Assembly (NCBI GenBank): GCA_964355175.1
Contig: CAYHBZ010000002.1
Coordinates: 332,537 to 396,536, forward strand
Direction: 5' to 3'
Source of the DNA: an uncultured Gammaproteobacteria bacterium
GTDB lineage: Bacteria > Patescibacteriota > Patescibacteriia > Magasanikbacterales > GWA2-37-8
Length of the DNA stretch: 64,000 nt
The notes below the pieces were generated by a model. That model was not told the DNA's origin, did no database searches, and saw nothing but the letters and a program-made list of their open reading frames with translations. The number at the start of each line of letters is the position of its first letter. The first letter of the stretch is position 1. Shown here one piece after another: positions 15,844 to 62,915 of the stretch. The position numbers and the translations under genes are program-made.

Positions 15844-16118
15844 GGGCAGATACCAAAGTGGCTAACTGGGGCAGACTGTGAACAATTGCAGCTCTTAGAG
15901 GTAACTCTAGGATGAACTCTCTGGGATAACGGTGAAAGCTAATGGGGGTGCTAATACCGTGGGAACTTCGCAACGTGCGGAGAGCGCCGTAGAGACTAGA
16001 TACCAGAGTATCCCGATTCAGTTGGGATAAAGATATAGTCCATGCCGTAAGGAAACTTATGGATAAGTGAAATCTGCTGGCTCCGCCTTCGTAGGTTCGA
16101 ATCCTACTCTGCCCACCA
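15844..16118 (+). tRNA. tRNA-Tyr(GUA) split by a group I intron in the anticodon loop (exons 15844-15879 and 16070-16118, CCA encoded)
   Basis: The joined exons read GGGCAGA-UA-CCAA..UGGG-G-CAGAC-U-GUA-AA-UCUGC-UGGCUCCGCCUUC-GUAGGUUCGAAUCCUAC-UCUGCCC-A-CCA. This is a type II tRNA with a long variable arm. The anticodon stem-loop GCAGACUGUAAAUCUGC is identical to bacterial tRNA-Tyr. Confidence 0.75.
15880..16069 (+). other. group I self-splicing intron (IC3-like, ~190 nt) within tRNA-Tyr
   Basis: The conserved S element AAGAUAUAGUCC matches the group I consensus exactly at 16029-16041. The R-like element GUAGAGACUAGAUA at 15989-16002 supplies the P7 pairing GACUA/UAGUC. The 5' exon ends in U, which can pair with the internal guide GCAG near the intron start. 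The intron ends in G just before the 3' exon. Confidence 0.7.
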
Positions 16119-23454: not shown

Positions 23455-24204
23455 TCAGGTGCCGTACTGGGCGTGCTGGCGAAGTTGCTCCAGTTCCGCG
23501 GAGGTAGTCTCGATTTCTTCTGGATTCGCTTTCGCGTTTTCCAGAAGAGTCAGGACTTTGTCCACGGCCGTGCTGGCTTCGTCGCTTGACCAGTGCTTGC
23601 GTTTGCGTAGACGTGAAACCTCTCTCTGAGCTTGTCGCAGATAGGCCGACCTGATCCAGCTACGCCATCTTTCAATGTTTTGCCGGACGTAGGCGGGATC
23701 AGAGTAGTCGATGAGACTTGCCAGGATGTCGCCCGGCGAAGTATTGATCCAAGCTTTGTCTGGATACCTCTCCAGAGCCTGCTCGAGAATGTCCACGCGG
23801 CAGTTCAAGTACGCCGTCAGCATCTGTTCTTCCGAGAAAGGAGAGATGTCGACGTGCTTGAGCTTGAACAGCCTACAAATTCTTTTGACCTCCTTGATTT
23901 CGGTCAAGAAGTTTTCTCTCGCTGCCAGTGCTTCTGGCAACGATCTGGAGCTGCTCGACATCAGATCTGCACACCACACCGTGAGGTAGTGGCGAGCGAG
24001 TTGACGGCGTTCGTCTTCGTTCACGTGGCCCTTGAGATCCTGCAACTTCTGCAGTGCATCTTTCGGGTCGTTCCAGTTGCGCTCACCCAGCTCGGCGATG
24101 ATTTCTTGGTGTGCTTGTTTACGTTTCTTGGCGCGGTGCTTCTTGGCCATCACTGCGATGATGAAGACGCACGCGATAAATGCAACAATAACGGTGAGTT
24201 CCAT
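23455..24204 (-). CDS. orphan membrane-anchored protein encoded in high-GC islet 1
   Basis: 249 aa with an N-terminal TM helix, then a charged helical domain. GC is ~58% against ~38% in the flanks, with GC-rich third codon positions. No motif I recognise. Confidence 0.5.
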   Translation of the reverse strand: MELTVIVAFIACVFIIAVMAKKHRAKKRKQAHQEIIAELGERNWNDPKDALQKLQDLKGHVNEDERRQLARHYLTVWCADLMSSSSRSLPEALAARENFLTEIKEVKRICRLFKLKHVDISPFSEEQMLTAYLNCRVDILEQALERYPDKAWINTSPGDILASLIDYSDPAYVRQNIERWRSWIRSAYLRQAQREVSRLRKRKHWSSDEASTAVDKVLTLLENAKANPEEIETTSAELEQLRQHAQYGT

Positions 24205-27356: not shown

Positions 27357-27469
27357 TACAAAAAATTGACTTTTTTATAAATTAGTTTAATATATTCTCA
27401 AGTTTCCATCTGGCTATGGTATGCATGTCGCATACTTGGCATGAGAAGGAAAAGCCTGGGGGGATTATC

Positions 27470-27934
27470 ATGGACTTCGCTCTTACCCGCGGTTTTCGCA
27501 TTGCCGCGGAGATCATCATCATCCTGTCGGTGATCAGCATGGCGCTCGAGTGCATCGTGCTGTCTCTGGGTCTGTCCACGATGGCGGATCTGTCACACTA
27601 CATGGTCTCGACCGCCTTTTCGGCGTTCGTCGGCGGTGTCATGTGGTGGTATTTCGGTCTCCGCCACAACGCCTCCGTGATCAAGGCGTTGAAGTACTGG
27701 CGCGACGAGTTTCCACCGGTGGATTCTGTCGGGCTGTTTCTCGGGGTGACCTTCGTGATCATCTTCGTTCTGGTGTCGCTGTCGCAGCTCGTGCGCTGGG
27801 TCCTGCAGACTCACGCTGGTCTGGAGAGCTGGTGGATCCAGAACATGGTGATTGCCTTGGCTGCTTCTGCCATGTTCCTTCTAGCCATCGTGGCCGATGC
27901 TGTGCGTAGAAGGATGATTGACGGTCGCGATTGA
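27470..27934 (+). CDS. orphan 4-TM membrane protein encoded in high-GC islet 2 (alternative start 27416)
   Basis: ~60% GC. Four hydrophobic helices. TTGACT-16-TAATAT promoter at 27366-27393. The ATG at 27470 follows GGGGGGATTATC. Confidence 0.45.
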   Translation: MDFALTRGFRIAAEIIIILSVISMALECIVLSLGLSTMADLSHYMVSTAFSAFVGGVMWWYFGLRHNASVIKALKYWRDEFPPVDSVGLFLGVTFVIIFVLVSLSQLVRWVLQTHAGLESWWIQNMVIALAASAMFLLAIVADAVRRRMIDGRD

Positions 27935-33281: not shown

Positions 33282-33311
33282 TTAATCTAAAGCAAAATAA
33301 AGGCAAATAGA

Positions 33312-33340
33312 TTGACAAAACCACTATTTTATGCTATACT
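33312..33340 (+). promoter_or_regulatory. near-consensus sigma70 promoter (TTGACA-17-TATACT) for the islet 3 gene
   Basis: aTTGACAaaaccactattttatgcTATACTatt. A perfect 16-bp-arm palindrome follows at 33392-33438. Confidence 0.5.
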
Positions 33341-33501
33341 ATTCAGTTAGTTCTTTTATAACTATAATGACCAAGTCGTACCAAAAGAGGTAATGGGTAT
33401 CATATATTTCTAAAAAATAGGAATATATGATACCCATTTGCCTCCGGAACTTTTTCCTGAGGCGTTCGTTGGCTGGGTGCCAACATCCTTCAGGAGACAA
33501 G

Positions 33502-33909
33502 ATGAATCCCTCGGTTACTTATTGTGTGATTCTCGTCCGTGATGTGGTGGATGAAGAAGGGCGGAAGGAAGAGTACGAATCGCCGTTTGTTGTGACCAAG
33601 GAGTCACAGTGGTCGTTCGGGTTCTTGCCCGAAACGGACCAGGAGATCCGCTTCGGCGAATTCGGTGACAACGAGAAGGAGACCATCGCCAATGTAACCA
33701 TGACCAGGATCTATCCCGACAGTGGGCGGATGGTTATCTTTTGCAAGGTCAAGTACATGTGGGACATGCAGAGGTTGCGCACGCAGGGTTGGACGCTCGA
33801 AGGCTCTGTCCGTCTCGGTGCACCGGAGGTGGAAGTCCTGTACCAATGGCACCTCAATTGGGCGGATAATGGCTATAAGGACAAGGATCTCCAAGAAGCG
33901 GAGTTCTAG
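33502..33909 (+). CDS. orphan soluble protein encoded in high-GC islet 3 (alternative start 33427)
   Basis: ~57% GC. Starts MNPSVTYCVIL.. with the Shine-Dalgarno CAGGAGAC just upstream. No motif I recognise. Confidence 0.45.
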   Translation: MNPSVTYCVILVRDVVDEEGRKEEYESPFVVTKESQWSFGFLPETDQEIRFGEFGDNEKETIANVTMTRIYPDSGRMVIFCKVKYMWDMQRLRTQGWTLEGSVRLGAPEVEVLYQWHLNWADNGYKDKDLQEAEF

Positions 33910-38265: not shown

Positions 38266-38447
38266 AAATAGAACATTCCTGCTCGGGAAGAACTATTATT
38301 TGAAGACCGGACTTGTTCTCGACTTAGTCGAGACTTTACCGTTGCGGCACAGTGGAGGAATTGACCTCACTTCCACAAATAATAGGTTAAATTGTATGTA
38401 TAAACTATCAGGGTTCTAAGGCACTGTCAAAGCGGGTGTGGATAAGT

Positions 38448-56328: not shown

Positions 56329-59190
56329 ATGTTATCTATCTCTTGGTTTAAAGACCTAACAATCAAAGCTGAGGACCTGGTAGGTAGTAAAAATGCTTTA
56401 CTAGGCGAGCTTTCAGCAAAATTATCAGACAAAGGAATTCAAATTCCTTCTGGTTTTGTTTTAAATTCCGAAATGGTTCAGGAGTTTTGGAAAAATAATG
56501 ATTTGAATAAAAAAATTAAAGAAAATCTAAAAAATTTAGATACCCAGGATTTGGCCGCTGTCGCCAAAGTTTCAGCCAAGGTGCAAAAAATGGTAATGCT
56601 GAATTCTTGGCCCAAAGAAATAGAACAAGAAATCAAAAAAGCGATAAAAAAATTGGGCAAGAATTCCGTTTCCATCACTTCGGCAATGGTAGATAAAAAT
56701 TTAGTTGATATTAATCTTCACAAACAAGAGGTTGTATTTTCAAATATTCGTGGAGAAAAAGATATATTATTATATTTTAAAAAGTGTTTTTCCGCCCTGT
56801 ATTCCGTGGCCGCTGTGGTAGAGCGTGAAAGCAAAGGTATTGATCATCTCAGCGTTGGTGTGGCCTTGGCGGTGCAGGAAATGCCGGCCACTATTGCTGT
56901 AGTAGGCAAGGTGCGTACGGATGATAGGGAGTCCGGTTTCAAAGGAGTGATTTCTATTAGTGCGGCCGACAGCATATCTCGTTTATCAGCCGCAGACCAA
57001 TTTTGTGTTTTTAAGGCCGGTATCAAAGCTGGTTTTAAATCTATCATCAGCCGTCAGCTTGGGGCTAAAGCTAAAAATATTTCTCAACAATTTTATATCA
57101 GCGATGATCAGGTGATAAAGCTCAGCAAAATCGCTATCGAGATTGAAGATTTTGTTCGTAGCACCGTGGCTATTAGTTGGACGATTGATAATAAAGAAAA
57201 TATTTATATTACCGAGGTGGTGGTAAACTCTGCAAAACTATCAGCCTCAGCCGGGATAATTGAAAATTACAGTTTGCAAAAACACGGTGAGGTATTGGTA
57301 CAAGGTGTGAGTGTTGGTCAAAAAATCGCTCAAGGCAAAGTGCGTATCGTAAATTCGGCCAAAGAAATGAGTGAATTTAAAGCTGGTGAAGTGTTGGTAA
57401 CCAAAATGACCGATGTCGATTGGGATGGTGTGATGCGTCTGGCTAGTGCGGTGATTACCGAGGGTGGTGGCAAAAATTCTCACGCCGCTATTCGCGCTCG
57501 TGAAATTGGTATTCCGTGTATTGTGGGGGCCGATAAAGCGTTAAAAATTTTAAAAAATAATCAGGAAGTGACCGTATCGTCCAATGTAGGTGAAGCTGGG
57601 TCGGTATACAGAGGCCGTCTGCCTTTTAGCGTGGAGCGCTCGGAGATAAAATCTATTCCGTCTACCCGCACCAAGATGCTTATCAATATGGCCAATCCGG
57701 ATAGCGCTTTCTCACTGAGCAATATTCCTACCGACGGCGTGGGTCTGGCGCGTGAAGAATTTATTTTTACCAATTTTGTCAAAATTCATCCGCTGGCTTT
57801 AGTAAATTACAAAGATATTAAAGATAAAAAAGTAAAAGCTAAAATTGATGAGTTGACTGTCGGTTATAAAGATAAAAAACAATACGGTATTGATAAGCTG
57901 GCCGAAGGTCTGGCGTTTTTGGCTACGGCTTTTTATCCGCACAGTGTGCAGGTGAGACTGTCGGATTTCAAAAGTAATGAATACGCATCGCTCATCGGTG
58001 GCACTCAATTTGAACCAAAAGAAGATGTGCCTTCCATGGGCTGGCGTGGGGCTAGTCGTTATTATGATCCAAAATATAAATCTGCTTTTGAATTGGAATG
58101 TGCCGCTATCAAAAAAGCGCGTGAAATTTGGGGACTAAAAAATATTATCATTACCGTACCATTTTGTCGCACGGTAGATGAAGGTAAAAAGGTGCTAGAA
58201 ACCATGAAAGAATTTGGCCTGGAGCAAGGTAAGCAGGATCTGAAAGTATATGTAATGTGCGAATTGCCGGCCAATGTAATTTTGGCCAAAGAATTTGCGC
58301 AGATTTTTGATGGTTTTAGTATTGGCAGTAACGATCTCACTCAATTTACTCTAGGCGTGGACAGAGATTCATCGCTGATGAGTAGTGTTTATGATGAAAA
58401 TAATTTGGCCGTAAAAAAATTAATTCGCCAATTGATTGAAACAGCGCATGAGTACAAACGACCGGTTAGTATTTGTGGAGAAGCCGTCAATGACAGCGCT
58501 GAGTTCGTAGAATTTTTGGTGCAAGAGGGAATAGACGGTATTTCTTTTAATAGTGATTCGGTAATGAAGATGCGTAATCGCGTTGCCAGTACCGAAAAAA
58601 AGGTAGGTAACTGGCGTGGACATACCCAGCAATTTGCTTTGGCCGCCAAGTCATTTTTGATAATTGGTGTGGTGGGCATGAGCTCAATTCTCGGCGGATA
58701 TGGCTGTCAGACAATAAATAATCAGACCGTGACCGATAATTTAAAAGTGCAAATGCAACAGCAAGTGCTGGAAATGAAAGCTCAATTGCGCCAAGAAATC
58801 ACTTCCGAAATAATTAAAAAAACACCGCCGCAAGTTTATAGTACCGACACTTTTGTAAAAATGAAACTTACTTATCCTGGCGGTTGGAGCACCAACGCTT
58901 GGGAAGATGGTGTGGAATTTGCCTCTGCGGACGAATCTCAATATTTCATGGTGTTTGTCCAAAAGATGGGTCATCCCGTACCGGCAGAAAAAATTTCCAC
59001 CACTACTTGGAATAATTATCCAGCCAAGCGTCTACAGGACGGTAGTCAAAAAGATGGTACGCCGTATGAGGTGCTCGAAGTATATGTCAAAGGCTACAAA
59101 CAAACCGAAAATATTGTTGAGCTACGCGGCGACCCCAAAACCTTTGAAGATAATTTGAAAAAAGTGGAACAATTTGAGATAAAGAAATAA
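56329..59190 (+). CDS. PEP-synthase / pyruvate-phosphate-dikinase-like enzyme with a C-terminal TM helix and ~230-aa extension
   Basis: Phospho-His mobile domain GGKNSHAAIRAREIGIPCIVGA. PEP-utilizers C-domain FSIGSNDLTQFTLGVDRD. After residue ~770 comes a hydrophobic helix (FLIIGVVGMSSILGG) and an extra domain with no motif I recognise. Confidence 0.75.
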   Translation: MLSISWFKDLTIKAEDLVGSKNALLGELSAKLSDKGIQIPSGFVLNSEMVQEFWKNNDLNKKIKENLKNLDTQDLAAVAKVSAKVQKMVMLNSWPKEIEQEIKKAIKKLGKNSVSITSAMVDKNLVDINLHKQEVVFSNIRGEKDILLYFKKCFSALYSVAAVVERESKGIDHLSVGVALAVQEMPATIAVVGKVRTDDRESGFKGVISISAADSISRLSAADQFCVFKAGIKAGFKSIISRQLGAKAKNISQQFYISDDQVIKLSKIAIEIEDFVRSTVAISWTIDNKENIYITEVVVNSAKLSASAGIIENYSLQKHGEVLVQGVSVGQKIAQGKVRIVNSAKEMSEFKAGEVLVTKMTDVDWDGVMRLASAVITEGGGKNSHAAIRAREIGIPCIVGADKALKILKNNQEVTVSSNVGEAGSVYRGRLPFSVERSEIKSIPSTRTKMLINMANPDSAFSLSNIPTDGVGLAREEFIFTNFVKIHPLALVNYKDIKDKKVKAKIDELTVGYKDKKQYGIDKLAEGLAFLATAFYPHSVQVRLSDFKSNEYASLIGGTQFEPKEDVPSMGWRGASRYYDPKYKSAFELECAAIKKAREIWGLKNIIITVPFCRTVDEGKKVLETMKEFGLEQGKQDLKVYVMCELPANVILAKEFAQIFDGFSIGSNDLTQFTLGVDRDSSLMSSVYDENNLAVKKLIRQLIETAHEYKRPVSICGEAVNDSAEFVEFLVQEGIDGISFNSDSVMKMRNRVASTEKKVGNWRGHTQQFALAAKSFLIIGVVGMSSILGGYGCQTINNQTVTDNLKVQMQQQVLEMKAQLRQEITSEIIKKTPPQVYSTDTFVKMKLTYPGGWSTNAWEDGVEFASADESQYFMVFVQKMGHPVPAEKISTTTWNNYPAKRLQDGSQKDGTPYEVLEVYVKGYKQTENIVELRGDPKTFEDNLKKVEQFEIKK

Positions 59191-59196
59191 AACAAA

Positions 59197-59224
59197 AATC
59201 CTCCAATAATTTGGGGGATTTTTT
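59197..59224 (+). terminator. rho-independent terminator
   Basis: AATCCTCCAA-TAAT-TTGGGGGATT plus T-run. Confidence 0.8.
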
Positions 59225-59318
59225 AATAGTGTAGTTCTGGCCGGCCCCCAACTACTTCAGCATTTGGACCTTGCGGTCCGTGTGCCTTTTCGTCGGGGGC
59301 CGGGTGGCAGGAACTTCT

Positions 59319-59588
59319 TCAGGCAGCGACGCTACGCATCTTGTCCGCGTGCAGGGTCTGGCTGCTAGAACGCAGCGAGCCGCTGATGTGCCGCAGGCCA
59401 GGCTTTTCGCCCAGACTCACGCAGAGCTCAGGACCCGACAGTACGCCCTTGAGCGCCAGGGTGAGTTGGTGCCCGCGTTCCATGTAGACCACGGTGAGGT
59501 GCTCGCCCCAGTCGGTGATGATCGTATGGCCACACTTGAGTTGGGGCCAGTTGTTCCGCGTGAGATCGCGGGCATTGAAGGTCGTCAT
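59319..59588 (-). CDS. orphan protein encoded in high-GC islet 4
   Basis: ~60% GC. Probable start at MTTFNARDL. The longer track ORF starts inside the promoter. TTGACA-17-TATAAG promoter at 59649-59677 on the minus strand. Confidence 0.4.
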   Translation of the reverse strand: MTTFNARDLTRNNWPQLKCGHTIITDWGEHLTVVYMERGHQLTLALKGVLSGPELCVSLGEKPGLRHISGSLRSSSQTLHADKMRSVAA

Positions 59589-59731
59589 TGTCGTGCCTTT
59601 GCTTGAGGTTGTTCTTGCCACACCATCCGGCTTTGGATGGATGTCATACTTATATACTAAAATAGCCATTTTGTCAATCTAGAAACAAAAAAATCTGTTC
59701 TTTTTAAACAGATTTATAAGTCGCTGATAAG

Positions 59732-59786
59732 CGGGTCGGACGGGACTCGAACCCGCAACTTTCCCGACTTAGTCGGGATGCTCTAA
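59732..59786 (-). other. 3' tRNA-like fragment: tRNA-Asp T-arm/acceptor plus a non-canonical anticodon arm (UCCCG-ACUAAGU-CGGGA)
   Basis: 31 nt are identical to the 3' end of the tRNA-Asp gene at 60613-60686. The anticodon arm is replaced. The fragment has no 5' acceptor or D-arm 5' half. Confidence 0.6.
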
Positions 59787-60560
59787 TCATTTTTTAGTTA
59801 GGTCTAATTTTTCGAAATAATTGGCTAGTCCTTTGCAATAATTTTCTACATCGTAAAATGGTAGTGGAAATTCGTAATCAAATAGTAGTTTTACCAAAGT
59901 ATCTGGAATAAATTTACCTTTTTTCTTTTTTGGTTCTCGTTTTAATTCCGGGTCGATTTCTTTTAATAGTGGGAAAATTTTTTTCGCGTAGTCTTCATAC
60001 CATAAGTTATCGAGTAAATCAGTATCTAAAGATTTTTTAGCACAATTAGCTATTTCTTTTATCAATCTGAGCCTGCTTGACTCAGCAAGCGCTGTCGAAT
60101 GGTTGTTGCATAAAATAGGAATAGGCAAACGACCAACTTTTTGCATACCGGATCCGGCGGGTTTAGTAGTTAAATAACCGTTCCAATGTTCGCTAACTTT
60201 ATTTCTAAAAAAATTAATTTCATAATAACTCGGTATATGTTTTTCTTTTTTTAAAACATCCCCAAGCTGATTAATTAGGCTGACTAATTGATAATAATCT
60301 AATGACACTTTAATTCCTTTGTCTTGCGATTCAATCATTTCTTGGGTAGTCATTTTAGTAGCACCAGATTTAGCATTCTTTGGCGAAGTTGTTATTGTTC
60401 GGGAATATGATATGTAAGCCACTCTTAAAATTCTTATGTGGTGTAGAACTTTACTTCCTAAAGGCATTAATTTACCGTAAGCTGGATTTCCTAAGGTAGA
60501 CTGATTTAAATCAGTAATCAACTTATCAAACGGTGATACTTTAAATGTTGGTGATTCCAT
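59787..60560 (-). CDS. hypothetical protein (257 aa) inside the repeat-flanked tRNA-Asp segment
   Basis: Its stop codon abuts the 3' tRNA fragment. No motif I recognise. ~30% GC. Confidence 0.45.
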   Translation of the reverse strand: MESPTFKVSPFDKLITDLNQSTLGNPAYGKLMPLGSKVLHHIRILRVAYISYSRTITTSPKNAKSGATKMTTQEMIESQDKGIKVSLDYYQLVSLINQLGDVLKKEKHIPSYYEINFFRNKVSEHWNGYLTTKPAGSGMQKVGRLPIPILCNNHSTALAESSRLRLIKEIANCAKKSLDTDLLDNLWYEDYAKKIFPLLKEIDPELKREPKKKKGKFIPDTLVKLLFDYEFPLPFYDVENYCKGLANYFEKLDLTKK

Positions 60561-60612
60561 ATTAAATTTAAATTAAAAAACTACCTTTCGGTAGTTTTTA
60601 TAAACCTCTCAG

Positions 60613-60686
60613 CGGGTCGGACGGGACTCGAACCCGCAACTTCTGCCGTGACAGGGCAGTGCTCTAACCAGTTGAACTACCGACCC
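60613..60686 (-). tRNA. tRNA-Asp(GUC)
   Basis: Reverse complement: GGGUCGG-UA-GUUCAACUGGUUAGAGC-A-CUGCC-CUGUCAC-GGCAG-AAGUU-GCGGGUUCGAGUCCCGU-CCGACCC-G. The T-arm and discriminator G match canonical bacterial tRNA-Asp. Confidence 0.85.
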
Positions 60687-60696
60687 GCTAAGGTGT

Positions 60697-60960
60697 CTAT
60701 ATTTTATTATAATTTTTAAAATACCAGACTATATACTTTCTATTTTTTGATTTTTTTAGTTTATTTTCCAATTTGGCTGATTCAGATCCGTTTTCACATT
60801 CAATCGTGCCTACGAGTTCCCAAGGTGAGCCTGTTCGAGTATAAATTTCCTCACCGTTGTTATGTTCTTTAAAGCGTCGTGCTATATCAATAGTTTTACC
60901 AATATAGTATTTATTGGTTTTTTTGCTAAAAAGCAAATAGACGCAATGTTTACCCTCCAT
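60697..60960 (-). CDS. GIY-YIG nuclease family protein (YhbQ/UPF0213-like)
   Basis: MEGKHCVYLLFSKKTNKYYIGKTIDIARRFKEHNNG carries the GIY..YIG..R..EH motif set. ~88 aa starting at the M that abuts the 5' tRNA-like fragment. The longer track ORF reads into that fragment. Confidence 0.7.
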   Translation of the reverse strand: MEGKHCVYLLFSKKTNKYYIGKTIDIARRFKEHNNGEEIYTRTGSPWELVGTIECENGSESAKLENKLKKSKNRKYIVWYFKNYNKI

Positions 60961-60973
60961 ATTATTATAGTAA

Positions 60974-61031
60974 CGAACCCGCAACTTTCCCGACTAAGTC
61001 GGGATGCTCTAACCAGTTGAACTACCGACCC
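60974..61031 (-). other. 5' tRNA-like fragment: tRNA-Asp acceptor/D-arm plus a non-canonical anticodon arm (UCCCG-ACUUAGU-CGGGA), truncated in the T-loop
   Basis: 26 nt are identical to the 5' part of tRNA-Asp. It shares ~43 nt with the fragment at 59732, which makes a direct repeat around the 1.2-kb segment. Confidence 0.6.
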
Positions 61032-62465: not shown

Positions 62466-62519
62466 GTCGAAGTTTTGGCATTGCTTAGTCCGTCGGCGTT
62501 AAAGCTTCGGCGAACAAAG

Positions 62520-62915
62520 TGGAGGTGGCGAGAGTTGAACTCGCGTCCAAATAATTTTGAATATACCATCTACATGCTTAGGCTGCTTATTTTTTTAAGT
62601 TGATGGATAATAAACAGACGAAATTCCAGCAACCGAGCAAGATTTACTTTCGGCTATAGTCATCTTACAGTAACTAAAGCCTACTTTCCGTGAGTGACAC
62701 CGCTTTGCGTTACGGAACCTTACGCAGGCGATGGGAAGCGGTTATTAAGCCGCAACCGGAGCAAAGCTGAAGCTAGGGCTAAAAGCGCTAGCAAGAGCAG
62801 TCTTTACTTTTGATAACAAGTTTGCACTTATTATGTGTTTCGAGGATTTACGAGGTTCAAAACGCCCTCGGCATGCGAGTGTACTCAGAAACTTTTGTCA
62901 AAGCCCAGCACCCCC
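62520..62915 (-). ncRNA. ssrA: tmRNA (ssrA), ~396 nt
   Basis: Reverse complement starts GGGGGUGCUGGGCUUUG and ends ..GGACGCGAGUUCAACUCUCGCCACCUCCA (tRNA-like T-arm plus a 7-bp acceptor pairing with the 5' end). Internal tag reading frame GCA AAC UUG ... GUU GCG GCU UAA UAA, ending ..APVAA then a double stop. Adjacent to smpB. Confidence 0.7.

What the first reader, a model, noticed from the sequence alone, without database searches (positions are those of the whole stretch)
59226..59690. High-GC islet 4 adjacent to the tRNA-Asp mobile-looking locus
This ~60% GC block encodes an ~89-aa orphan protein on the minus strand. A TTGACA-17-TATAAG promoter at 59649-59677 sits in the AT-rich flank. The 3' end has a long GC hairpin CCGGCCCCC..GGGGGCCGG at 59241-59303 enclosing GGACC-ttgc-GGTCC. 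It lies directly beside a tRNA-fragment direct repeat at 59732-59786, so this islet sits next to a candidate integration hotspot.
Basis: partly seen in the sequence, partly recalled or inferred. Interest (0 to 1): 0.6.

Follow-up and report, generated by a model that had tools for sequence, protein, structure and literature searches.

The report
Conserved GC-rich small gene, clamp-folded mRNA
The GC-rich block is neither foreign DNA nor an assembly error: it is a small gene kept at the same spot in a dozen related Magasanikbacteria, its messenger RNA folds into a conserved clamp, and its protein-coding middle changes unusually fast.

Summary
The interpretation (orphan, mobile-looking islet, possible misassembly) mostly fails.

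The 89-aa minus-strand ORF is truly coding (GC3 0.80; dN/dS 0.35-0.6 among relatives). It belongs to a roughly 12-member family found only in Candidatus Magasanikbacteria. In every contig long enough to show both flanks, the gene lies between tRNA-Asp and the convergent PEP-utilising enzyme gene. Members keep GC3 at 0.64-0.94 in genomes of about 40% GC.

The "GC hairpin" is a 63-nt 3'UTR RNA motif with strong covariation and no Rfam match. A 5'-terminal hairpin and a helix pairing the 5'UTR with the sequence just after the stop codon are also conserved.

The ORF between the two clamp strands is hypervariable and does not track the flanks. The window and its closest relative share 92% identity in the neighbouring enzyme but 22% in this protein, with near-identical RNA "handles".

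Best reading: a strongly transcribed, clamp-folded (stable or translation-gated) mRNA carrying a fast-evolving or swapped small beta-protein. Its GC-richness is maintained, not inherited from a donor. Protein function is unknown. The tRNA-linked insertion beside it is a separate, genome-specific event.

The parts
59649..59677 (-). Sigma-70-type promoter: TTGACA (59672-59677), 17-nt spacer, TATAAG (59649-59654)
   Evidence: Read. Kept as TTGA(C/A)AAAA...TATA(A/C)(G/A) in 11 relatives. A 23-nt core, AGATTGACAAAAnnnCTATTTTA, is shared with islet 3 at 33309-33331, where 0.02 matches are expected by chance.
59623..59640 (-). 5'-terminal hairpin of the transcript (CCATCC aaagcc GGATGG)
   Evidence: Present in the MFE of the full transcript. 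A hairpin of different sequence occupies the same position in every relative.
59600..59621 (-). 5' strand of the clamp helix (GTGGCAAGAACAAC...), followed by the SD-like AGGCA at 59594-59598
   Evidence: Inverted repeat I1 with 59304-59325. Paired in the MFE and in 10 of 11 relatives' full-length MFE folds. Cognate 5'/3' partners are more stable than swapped ones, p about 1e-4.
59319..59588 (-). ORF of 89 aa: a small beta-rich protein with a disordered tail ending in Ala-Ala. This is the hypervariable part of the unit.
   Evidence: GC3 0.80. Family found. dN/dS 0.35-0.6 among same-type relatives. AF2 pLDDT is 73 for this member and 83 for a relative. No Pfam, PHROG, PADLOC or PDB match.
59304..59325 (-). 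3' strand of the clamp helix (..GCCTGAAGAAGTTCCTGCCAC), spanning the stop codon TGA at 59319-59321
   Evidence: The pair at helix position 6 is A-U, U-A, C-G or U.G in different lineages.
59241..59303 (-). 63-nt 3'UTR RNA motif: a 12-bp outer stem, internal loop GAAAA/GAAGUA, stem GGCA/UGCU, and stem GGACC/GGUCC with a GCAA loop
   Evidence: Six homologues fold independently into the same shape. In 11 sequences, 98.7% of cells are paired, 9 pairs change on both sides, and 0 of 500 shuffles reach this. The covariance model scores 68-92 bits on the ORF strand and 25-39 bits on the antisense strand, once per locus, and also finds L012, which was not in the seed. No Rfam family matches.
59194..59223 (.). 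Bidirectional intrinsic terminator shared with the convergent 953-aa PEP-utilising enzyme gene (56329..59190 +)
   Evidence: Inverted repeat I3 with A/T runs on both sides. The same arrangement is seen in relatives.
59691..59715 (-). Terminator hairpin of the upstream tRNA(-fragment) transcript. It marks the upstream edge of the unit.
   Evidence: Inverted repeat I12 followed by a T-run on the minus strand. The same hairpin follows the intact tRNA-Asp in L027.

Best explanation
Islet 4 is a self-contained, single-gene transcription unit that is ancestral at this site in a clade of Candidatus Magasanikbacteria.

A strong sigma-70-type promoter drives a roughly 400-nt GC-rich mRNA. Its ends are organised by three conserved helices meeting at a junction:
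- a 5'-terminal hairpin;
- a clamp helix that pairs the 5'UTR (in several lineages including the Shine-Dalgarno region) with the sequence around and just after the stop codon;
- a long 3' hairpin with conserved internal loops.
A terminator shared with the convergent neighbour follows.

The segment enclosed by the clamp codes for a 90-110 aa cytoplasmic beta-protein with a disordered tail that usually ends in Ala-Ala.

Shown here: the gene is real, syntenic and lineage-restricted. The RNA helices covary. The ORF evolves or is replaced far faster than its flanks, yet stays GC3-rich in every lineage.

Inferred:
- The hairpins and clamp make the mRNA long-lived and/or keep it translationally closed until it is opened, as in fold-back-inhibited toxin mRNAs.
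- The Ala-Ala tail makes the protein short-lived.
- The GC-richness is maintained by selection on the RNA, possibly helped by biased gene conversion during allele exchange. It is not a leftover of foreign origin.
- The hypervariable protein serves some conflict- or specificity-type role. What it does biochemically is unknown.
For: Coding:
- GC by codon position is 0.60/0.48/0.80.
- dN/dS is 0.35-0.6 among same-type relatives, with conserved W, VxY(I/V)D and E residues.

Family and synteny:
- The profile search of 5.8 billion proteins gives 5 members. Among the 15 hits of the exhaustive search of 1.84 billion representatives, 9 are small proteins of this kind.
- Of the loci read, those long enough show rplT-(GIY-YIG)-tRNA-Asp-[gene] facing the PEP-utilising enzyme gene. 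Shorter contigs show only one flank.

Maintained composition:
- Host contigs are 0.37-0.48 GC. The ORFs are 0.53-0.69 GC with GC3 of 0.64-0.94.
- In the window GC3 is bimodal: 49 ORFs at 0.24-0.52 and four islet ORFs at 0.66-0.80.

RNA:
- The whole-transcript fold has z = -4.4 and shows the 5' hairpin, clamp and 3' hairpin.
- The same clamp appears in 10 of 11 independent folds.
- 3' motif covariation: 98.7% paired, 9 double-sided pairs, 0 of 500 shuffles. G.U pairs and covariance-model scores favour the ORF strand.
- Cognate 5'/3' duplexes average -22.9 kcal/mol against -18.5 for swapped partners, p about 1e-4.

Hypervariable middle:
- Identities of this protein do not correlate with those of the flanking enzyme (Mantel r = 0.015, p = 0.43).
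- Window versus L043: the enzyme has dN 0.04 and dS 0.62, while the ORF has dN 0.95. The 3' motif is 62/63 identical.
- L010 carries the same 3' handle behind an ORF with no similarity to the family.

No outside reservoir: nothing in phages, plasmids or IMG/VR.

Tail: 8 of 11 members end in AA, and the tail has pLDDT below 50. The tmRNA tag here ends in PVAA.
Against: - There are no expression, RNA-end or structure-probing data. The transcript ends are inferred from the promoter and terminator sequences.
- The clamp is predicted. Much of it is conserved in sequence, so its covariation rests on a few positions plus the partner-swap test.
- The 11 sequences are related by descent, so shuffle counts overstate significance.
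- Within the ORF, folding is only slightly better than for synonymous shuffles (mean z = -1.2). Composition rather than a specific fold dominates, and the cause of the GC-richness is not settled.
- The conserved NCC-UGA ending could be an RNA constraint (pairing with the SD) rather than a protein degron. The last codon is always NCC, even when the residue is Ala, Thr or Ser.
- The window's own protein is the most divergent member, at 22-32% identity to the others.
- Protein function is unknown. Foldseek finds no fold match in PDB or BFVD.
Confidence: 0.55

Rival explanations
1. The GC-richness is a by-product of recombination. The ORF is a hot spot of allele exchange between the conserved handles, and GC-biased gene conversion in the exchanged tract drives GC up at all codon positions. 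No selection on the RNA is needed.
For: - The ORF is incongruent with its flanks.
- The break points of similarity sit at the clamp strands.
- A non-homologous ORF lies behind the same 3' handle in L010.
- GC1 and GC2 are raised as well as GC3.
- Folding of the ORF is only weakly better than for synonymous shuffles.
Against: - The GC-rich domain coincides with the transcribed region, from the 5' hairpin to the 3' motif, rather than with the exchanged tract alone.
- GC3 of 0.8-0.94 against a background of 0.38 is a far larger effect than I know to have been reported for bacterial biased conversion (my own knowledge, not checked here).
- Other islets also keep high GC3 in orthologues. Islet 1 does so in L051 and L052.
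Confidence: 0.25
2. This is a hok-like type I toxin module. A stable, fold-back-inhibited mRNA would encode a toxic protein that is only made after processing or unfolding, and an antisense RNA would keep it in check.
For: - A strong promoter, 5'-3' pairing that takes in the SD region in several lineages, and a structured 3' end. These resemble the hok tac/fbi arrangement described in PMC9841398 (found; only the abstract was seen).
- It is a single small gene with no partner.
Against: - The product is 89-110 aa and is predicted to be a soluble beta-protein with no hydrophobic helix. Type I toxins are small hydrophobic peptides (PMC3919570 abstract).
- No promoter-like site lies on the opposite strand within the unit.
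- There is no match to antitoxin RNA families at gathering score.
Confidence: 0.1
3. This is recent horizontal transfer: a foreign cassette inserted beside tRNA-Asp.
For: - A sharp compositional jump.
- A tRNA fragment and a genome-specific insertion next door.
- An ORF that is not congruent with its flanks.
Against: - The unit, promoter and UTR elements are the same in 11 or more lineages, and the position is the same wherever both flanks can be read.
- The direct repeat brackets the 257-aa ORF, not the islet.
- There is no integrase and there are no flanking repeats beyond A-rich chance matches.
- No homologue was seen outside this clade or in phage, plasmid or viral collections.
Confidence: 0.07
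4. This is a non-coding structured RNA, and the ORF is a chance product of GC-rich sequence.
For: - The whole-transcript z-score is -4.4 and the end structures are conserved.
- Long ORFs also appear on the antisense strand.
Against: - Three-base periodicity with GC3 of 0.80 in one frame only.
- dN/dS below 1, conserved residues, and indels in multiples of three.
- A confident AF2 fold from 11 sequences, pLDDT 83.
- Antisense ORFs are not conserved in length.
Confidence: 0.03
5. This is an assembly chimera or a collapsed repeat.
For: Only the abrupt change in GC.
Against: - The sequence is identical in two other assemblies.
- It occurs once in the window.
- Homologous units sit at the same locus in many independent MAGs.
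Confidence: 0.01

Closest known systems
Fold-back-inhibited mRNAs of type I toxin-antitoxin systems (hok/Sok, AapA1/IsoA1, dinQ, zorO)
   Same: A stable, highly structured mRNA from its own promoter. Long-range pairing between the 5' end and the 3' end closes the message and can hide the ribosome-binding region. It is a single short ORF.
   Different: The product is two to three times longer and is predicted to be soluble and beta-rich, not a membrane peptide. No antisense RNA gene was found. There is no sequence or Rfam relation. Toxicity is unknown.
mRNA-stabilising terminal hairpins (5' stem-loops such as that of ompA; 3' stem-loops that block exonucleases). From my own knowledge, not tested here.
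   Same: A hairpin at the very 5' end of the transcript, and a long GC hairpin upstream of the terminator.
   Different: Here the two hairpins flank a third, clamp helix, and the 3' hairpin has conserved internal loops (GAAAA/GAAGUA, GGCA/UGCU). This suggests a specific ligand or tertiary contact rather than a plain roadblock.
tRNA-linked genomic islands / integrative elements
   Same: Deviant composition, and a position next to a tRNA gene with a duplicated tRNA 3' half nearby.
   Different: There is no integrase. The repeats do not bracket the islet. The unit is present at the same site in all close relatives read, with native-looking promoter and terminator.
Hypervariable loci with conserved flanks (for example pherotype or immunity-type allele sets kept by diversifying or balancing selection). 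From my own knowledge.
   Same: Near-identical flanks, a middle that is unalignable between close relatives, and allele types that do not follow the species tree.
   Different: The flanks here are RNA structural elements of the same transcript. The product has no signal peptide, partner gene or known domain.
Natural proteins with ssrA-like C-termini (ClpXP C-motif 1). From my own knowledge.
   Same: A disordered C-terminal tail ending in Ala-Ala, like this organism's tmRNA tag (..FAPVAA).
   Different: Degradation is untested. The conserved NCC-UGA may instead be an RNA pairing constraint.

Membership tests
tRNA-linked genomic island / integrative element | Integrase or recombinase gene inside the element | tested here: not met
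   The only ORF in the islet has no Pfam or PHROG hit. The neighbouring 257-aa ORF also has none, and the nearby 95-aa ORF is a GIY-YIG domain.
tRNA-linked genomic island / integrative element | Direct repeats (att sites) bracketing the element | tested here: not met
   The tRNA-Asp 3' half is repeated at 60612-60642 and 59732-59762, and this repeat brackets 59787-60611, not the islet. The only repeat flanking the islet is a 12-nt A-rich match at 83% identity (D5).
tRNA-linked genomic island / integrative element | Patchy presence: the site is empty in close relatives | tested here: not met
   The unit is present in all close relatives read, and at the same site wherever both flanks are visible. 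It is absent only from more distant ones (L004, L005, L006, L008, L009, L011).
Integron gene cassette (attC) | attC with RYYYAAC / GTTRRRY cores, in an array or near an integrase | tested here: not met
   The outer-stem ends are CCCCAAC / GTCGGGG in the window and differ freely in relatives (CCCGAA/TTCGGG, CTGAT/ATCAG). It is a single unit with its own promoter and no integrase.
hok-like type I toxin-antitoxin | Small hydrophobic toxin peptide (under about 60 aa) | tested here: not met
   89-110 aa, with a beta-rich soluble model at pLDDT 73-83.
hok-like type I toxin-antitoxin | Long-range 5'-3' pairing that closes the mRNA | tested here: met
   Seen in the MFE fold of the window and in those of 9 of its 10 relatives, and supported by a cognate-versus-swapped duplex test with p about 1e-4. 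This is prediction only, with no probing.
hok-like type I toxin-antitoxin | Antisense RNA antitoxin gene | tested here: inconclusive
   No promoter-like site on the plus strand within 59200-59700, and no antitoxin RNA family at gathering score. Absence of a consensus promoter is weak evidence.
Any Rfam 15 RNA family (for the 63-nt 3' motif) | Score at or above the family's gathering threshold | tested here: not met
   Nothing in the islet at gathering score. The best sub-threshold hits over the motif are 13-24 bits and are inconsistent between relatives.
Intrinsic terminator (for the GC hairpin) | GC stem followed directly by a U-run | tested here: not met
   On the ORF strand the hairpin ends at 59241 and is followed by CCAGAACTACAC. 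The true terminator, with U-runs on both strands, is at 59194-59223.
ssrA-like C-terminal degron substrates | Exposed C-terminus ending in Ala-Ala | tested here: met
   8 of 11 members end in AA. The tail has pLDDT below 50.
ssrA-like C-terminal degron substrates | Degradation by ClpXP or a related protease that depends on the tail | not testable with these tools
   This needs in vivo or in vitro turnover assays. Whether the protease is present in this genome was not checked.

The most novel reading that the evidence does not exclude
Magasanikbacteria (and perhaps other CPR bacteria) may carry a class of 'insulated cassettes'. These would be single-gene units whose conserved RNA handles (5' hairpin, clamp, 3' motif) stay fixed at a chromosomal site, while the enclosed GC3-rich ORF is swapped or diversified at a rate far above the genome's. 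The GC-richness would be actively maintained across speciation. Islet 4 would be the clearest example. Islet 1 (which has a syntenic, fast-evolving, GC3-rich orthologue and a predicted clamp) and the other GC3-rich genes downstream of the same enzyme gene in other lineages would be further members. Such units could be a previously unrecognised kind of conflict or specificity locus with an RNA-level control layer.
Probability: 0.25. Interest if true: 0.75.

Novelty: new variant of a known kind. Interest (0 to 1): 0.55.

Why it matters
1. It is a clean counter-example to the routine reading that a compositional island beside a tRNA means recent horizontal transfer. Here a single gene has kept GC3 of 0.64-0.94 inside roughly 40% GC genomes across many lineages. 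That calls for selection or a biased process acting at the scale of one transcript.

2. It yields an undescribed, well-covarying RNA motif and a 5'-3' clamped mRNA architecture in an uncultured phylum where almost nothing is known about RNA-level regulation.

3. Near-identical RNA handles combined with a hypervariable ORF make a tractable system for asking how small accessory proteins diversify in reduced genomes.

4. In practical terms, gene callers start this ORF, and at least one orthologue, inside the promoter.

Tried and rejected
- Rfam at gathering and permissive thresholds, on the window and on six relatives, found no family for any part of the islet.
- DNA similarity among the four islets is only chance 9-12-mers, apart from the shared promoter core. 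Protein similarity among the four islets is nil.
- An exact-pattern scan for the motif found four chance hits inside unrelated genes in JGI metagenomes and none in IMG/VR.
- The family alignment is too divergent to seed a viral-contig scan.
- tblastn against phage and plasmid collections found nothing.
- The attC, intrinsic-terminator and hammerhead readings of the hairpin were dropped. The CUGAUGA seen in two relatives is simply part of the covarying outer stem.
- The plus-strand 111-aa ORF (59271..59606) was rejected. Its GC pattern is the mirror of the minus-strand gene, and antisense ORFs are not conserved.
- Six long repetitive proteins among the exhaustive-search hits were treated as spurious. 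Only one of them (P0012, a tandem-repeat protein) was inspected.
- Literature searches for GC3 or GC-content anomalies in CPR or Magasanikbacteria returned nothing relevant.

Full report
**1. The observation**

The window averages 41% GC. Between about 59238 and 59640 the GC content rises to 0.58-0.66 in 100-nt windows.

The minus strand carries an ORF at 59319..59588 (89 aa). Its GC by codon position is 0.60/0.48/0.80. The neighbouring 953-aa gene has 0.50/0.34/0.38. The longer 116-aa version used by gene callers starts at an ATG inside the promoter spacer.

- TTGACA (59672-59677), a 17-nt spacer, and TATAAG (59649-59654);
- the hairpin with arms at 59241-59252 and 59292-59303, enclosing GGACC-ttgc-GGTCC;
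- the tRNA-like fragment at 59732-59786.

The simple promoter scan missed the promoter only because it demands T at the last -10 position.

The block is not an assembly artefact. The stretch 58900-60700 is identical in two further assemblies, and the protein is also on record on a 953,736-bp contig.

**2. Who owns the window, and is the ORF an orphan?**

The neighbouring enzyme gene places the window in Candidatus Magasanikbacteria, a CPR lineage.

A word-indexed search with the ORF found only itself. However, the closest relative in the species collection (L003, enzyme 82% identical) has a block of about 60% GC next to its tRNA-Asp, carrying a recognisably related 94-aa ORF. L007 and L027 have the same.

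A profile of these sequences retrieved five proteins. The exhaustive HMM search of 1.84 billion representatives gave 15 hits at E of 0.001 or better. Nine of them are small proteins of 93-123 aa. The other six are long repetitive proteins that I regard as spurious.

Of the loci I could read, those long enough have the order smpB - tmRNA - infC - rpmI - rplT - (GIY-YIG) - tRNA-Asp - [this gene], facing the PEP-utilising enzyme gene. Shorter contigs show only one flank.

No member or motif was found in phage, plasmid or IMG/VR collections. No Pfam, PHROG, PADLOC or PDB family matches.

The gene is therefore lineage-specific but not an orphan, and it is ancestral at this site.

**3. The composition is maintained, not left over**

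Host contigs are 0.37-0.48 GC, while the ORFs are 0.53-0.69 GC with GC3 of 0.64-0.94.

In the window GC3 is bimodal. Of 53 ORFs, 49 have GC3 of 0.24-0.52. The four islet ORFs have 0.66-0.75, or 0.80 for the trimmed 89-aa form of this one.

The four islet proteins are unrelated to one another. Islets 1, 3 and 4 carry three of the four TTGACAAAA-type promoter matches in the window; the fourth lies upstream of tRNA-Gln.

Islet 1 also has syntenic orthologues upstream of secA that are fast-evolving and GC3-rich. One is 58% identical where SecA is 92% identical, with GC3 of 0.66. The other is 36% identical over about 100 residues, with GC3 of 0.62.

Simple amelioration of foreign DNA cannot explain this pattern.

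**4. The hairpin is a conserved RNA motif**

Six homologues fold independently into the same shape:
- a 12-13-bp outer stem;
- an internal loop GAAAA/GAAGUA;
- a short stem GGCA/UGCU;
- a 5-6-bp stem with a GCAA or longer loop.

On an 11-sequence alignment, 98.7% of cells are paired and nine pairs change on both sides. No shuffle out of 500 reaches these values, and sliding the partners destroys the signal.

G.U pairs lie on the ORF strand. One G.U is conserved in 9 of 11 sequences.

A covariance model scores 68-92 bits on the ORF strand against 25-39 bits on the antisense strand. It hits exactly once per locus, always downstream of this gene. It also finds L012, which was not in the seed.

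The motif has no U-run, so it is not the terminator. The terminator is the bidirectional hairpin at 59194-59223.

Rfam has no matching family. One lineage (L047) keeps the long stem but has a different interior.

**5. The whole message is clamped**

Folding 59236-59643 on the minus strand gives -175 kcal/mol, with z = -4.4 against dinucleotide shuffles. The fold shows:
- a 5'-terminal hairpin at 59623-59640;
- a helix between the 5'UTR box GUGGCAAGAAC.. (59600-59621) and ..GUUCCUGCCAC (59304-59325), which spans the stop codon;
- the 3' motif abutting that helix.

The same clamp appears in 10 of 11 full-length folds of relatives.

Position 6 of the helix is A-U, U-A, C-G or U.G in different lineages, and position 5 is C-G or U-A.

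Cognate 5'/3' partners form more stable duplexes than swapped partners, -22.9 against -18.5 kcal/mol, with a permutation p of about 1e-4.

In several lineages the Shine-Dalgarno region pairs with the last codons. The window has AGGCA with UGCCU, and L007 has CAGGAC with GUCCUG. The last codon plus stop is NCC-UGA in 10 of 11 sequences, whatever the residue.

The 5' hairpin differs in sequence in every lineage but is always present.

Inside the ORF, folding is only slightly better than for synonymous shuffles (mean z = -1.2).

**6. The protein**

Among same-type relatives dN/dS is 0.35-0.6, so the protein is under purifying selection but evolves fast.

AlphaFold gives a six-strand beta core. 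The pLDDT is 73 for the window's member, and 83 with pTM 0.71 for a relative. The last 15 or so residues are disordered.

Eight of 11 members end in Ala-Ala, like the local tmRNA tag (..FAPVAA).

Foldseek finds nothing convincing in PDB or BFVD. Function therefore remains unknown.

**7. The middle does not follow the flanks**

Pairwise identities of this protein are uncorrelated with those of the adjacent enzyme (Mantel r = 0.015, p = 0.43).

The window's nearest relative at the enzyme gene is L043 (92% identical; dN 0.04, dS 0.62). Its version of this protein is only 22% identical to the window's (dN 0.95). Meanwhile the 5' box is identical and the 3' motif is 62/63 identical. Similarity breaks down at the clamp strands.

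L010 has the same 3' box and motif (75 bits) behind a GC3-rich ORF with no similarity to the family.

Two explanations fit:
- Alleles are exchanged by recombination using the conserved handles.
- The ORF is under extreme diversifying selection.

**8. The tRNA neighbourhood**

In L003, L027, L044 and L047 the gene follows tRNA-Asp directly.

In the window, a low-GC 257-aa ORF (59787-60560; GC3 0.24) lies between the intact tRNA-Asp and the fragment.

The fragment keeps the ancestral downstream terminator. The same hairpin follows the intact tRNA in L027.

The tRNA site did therefore receive an insertion in this genome, but that event is separate from the islet.

**9. Mechanism and comparison**

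Shown: a real, syntenic, lineage-restricted gene; three covarying RNA helices; a hypervariable, persistently GC-rich ORF.

Inferred: the terminal hairpins and clamp protect the message and/or hold it translationally closed. This is the logic of fold-back-inhibited type I toxin mRNAs (PMC9841398 and PMC5066626, abstracts seen).

The unit fails membership of that family. Its product is neither small nor hydrophobic, and no antisense gene is visible.

It also fails the tests for a tRNA-linked island, an integron cassette, an intrinsic terminator, and any Rfam family.

The cause of the GC-richness is unresolved. It could be selection for a stable, RNase-resistant message, or biased gene conversion during allele exchange.

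**10. Verdict**

The feature is more interesting than a transferred orphan. It combines a new RNA motif, a clamped mRNA, and a fast-changing gene whose deviant composition is kept across lineages. Its function is still unknown, and all RNA claims are computational. Interest is 0.55, and I class it as a new variant of a known kind.

Noticed in passing
window 59732-59786; L038 5790-5850; L043 70-185: The tRNA-Asp fragment has its anticodon arm replaced by the hairpin TCCCGACTAAGTCGGGA. The same hairpin replaces the arm in a fragment placed 45 nt after the intact tRNA-Asp in L038. It also sits inside the T-arm region of a scrambled tRNA-Asp-like sequence in L043 that ARAGORN does not call. It looks like a small palindromic insert, or an att-site remnant that recurs in this tRNA.
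   Followed up: partly
window 59787-60560 (minus): A 257-aa ORF with very low GC (0.32; GC3 0.24) and no Pfam or PHROG hit lies between the intact tRNA-Asp and the fragment. It is absent at this position in L003, L027, L038, L044 and L047. It is probably the cargo, or a remnant, of a tRNA-targeted insertion.
   Followed up: partly
window 23455-24204 (-), 27416-27934 (+), 33427-33909 (+): Three more single-gene units have GC3 of 0.66-0.75 and no known domains. Islets 1 and 3 share the TTGACAAAA-type promoter with islet 4. Islet 1 has syntenic, fast-evolving, GC3-rich orthologues in L051 and L052. Its predicted fold also pairs the 5'UTR (GACATGGTGTC) with the sequence just after the stop codon (GATACCATGTC), ahead of a GC hairpin. 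Islet 2 is absent from the same position in L051 and L052.
   Followed up: partly
L004 10985-12959; L008 9039-9965; L011 10836-11825; L052 7207-7740: Relatives that lack the islet-4 family (L004, L008, L011) carry other, unrelated GC3-rich genes (GC3 0.80-0.85; 178-300 aa) downstream of the same PEP-utilising enzyme gene. L052, a secA locus, carries a 177-aa gene with GC3 of 0.69 upstream of secA. GC3-rich genes are a recurrent class in this lineage.
   Followed up: no
window 59669 (ATG); L049 427: Automatic gene calls start this ORF (116 aa), and its L049 orthologue (110 aa), at an ATG that lies inside the promoter spacer (TTGACAAAATGG...). The real start is probably the downstream ATG at 59588.
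   Followed up: yes
L047 5334-5420: In this lineage the 3' hairpin keeps a long GC outer stem but has a quite different interior, with no GAAAAGGCA / AAUGCUGAAGUA. The conserved internal loops are therefore not universal in the family.
   Followed up: no
window 60697-60984 (minus): A small stand-alone GIY-YIG domain ORF (95 aa, Pfam E = 3.6e-15) lies between rplT and tRNA-Asp. It is conserved at that place in several relatives (L038, L047).
   Followed up: no
window 15850-16062 (+) and 38268-38401 (-): Rfam gathering-score hits to a group I intron (50.6 bits, sitting between ORFs near the tRNA-Thr genes) and to an AdoCbl riboswitch (51.9 bits).
   Followed up: no
window 62519-62915 (tmRNA) versus the C-termini of the family: The tmRNA tag ends in ..FAPVAA. 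Family members end in SVAA, LPVAA, PVALAA, IAA, QAA and RAA. The gene is about 3 kb from ssrA and smpB in every lineage where that stretch is visible. This may be coincidence of synteny or a functional link to tag-dependent proteolysis.
   Followed up: partly
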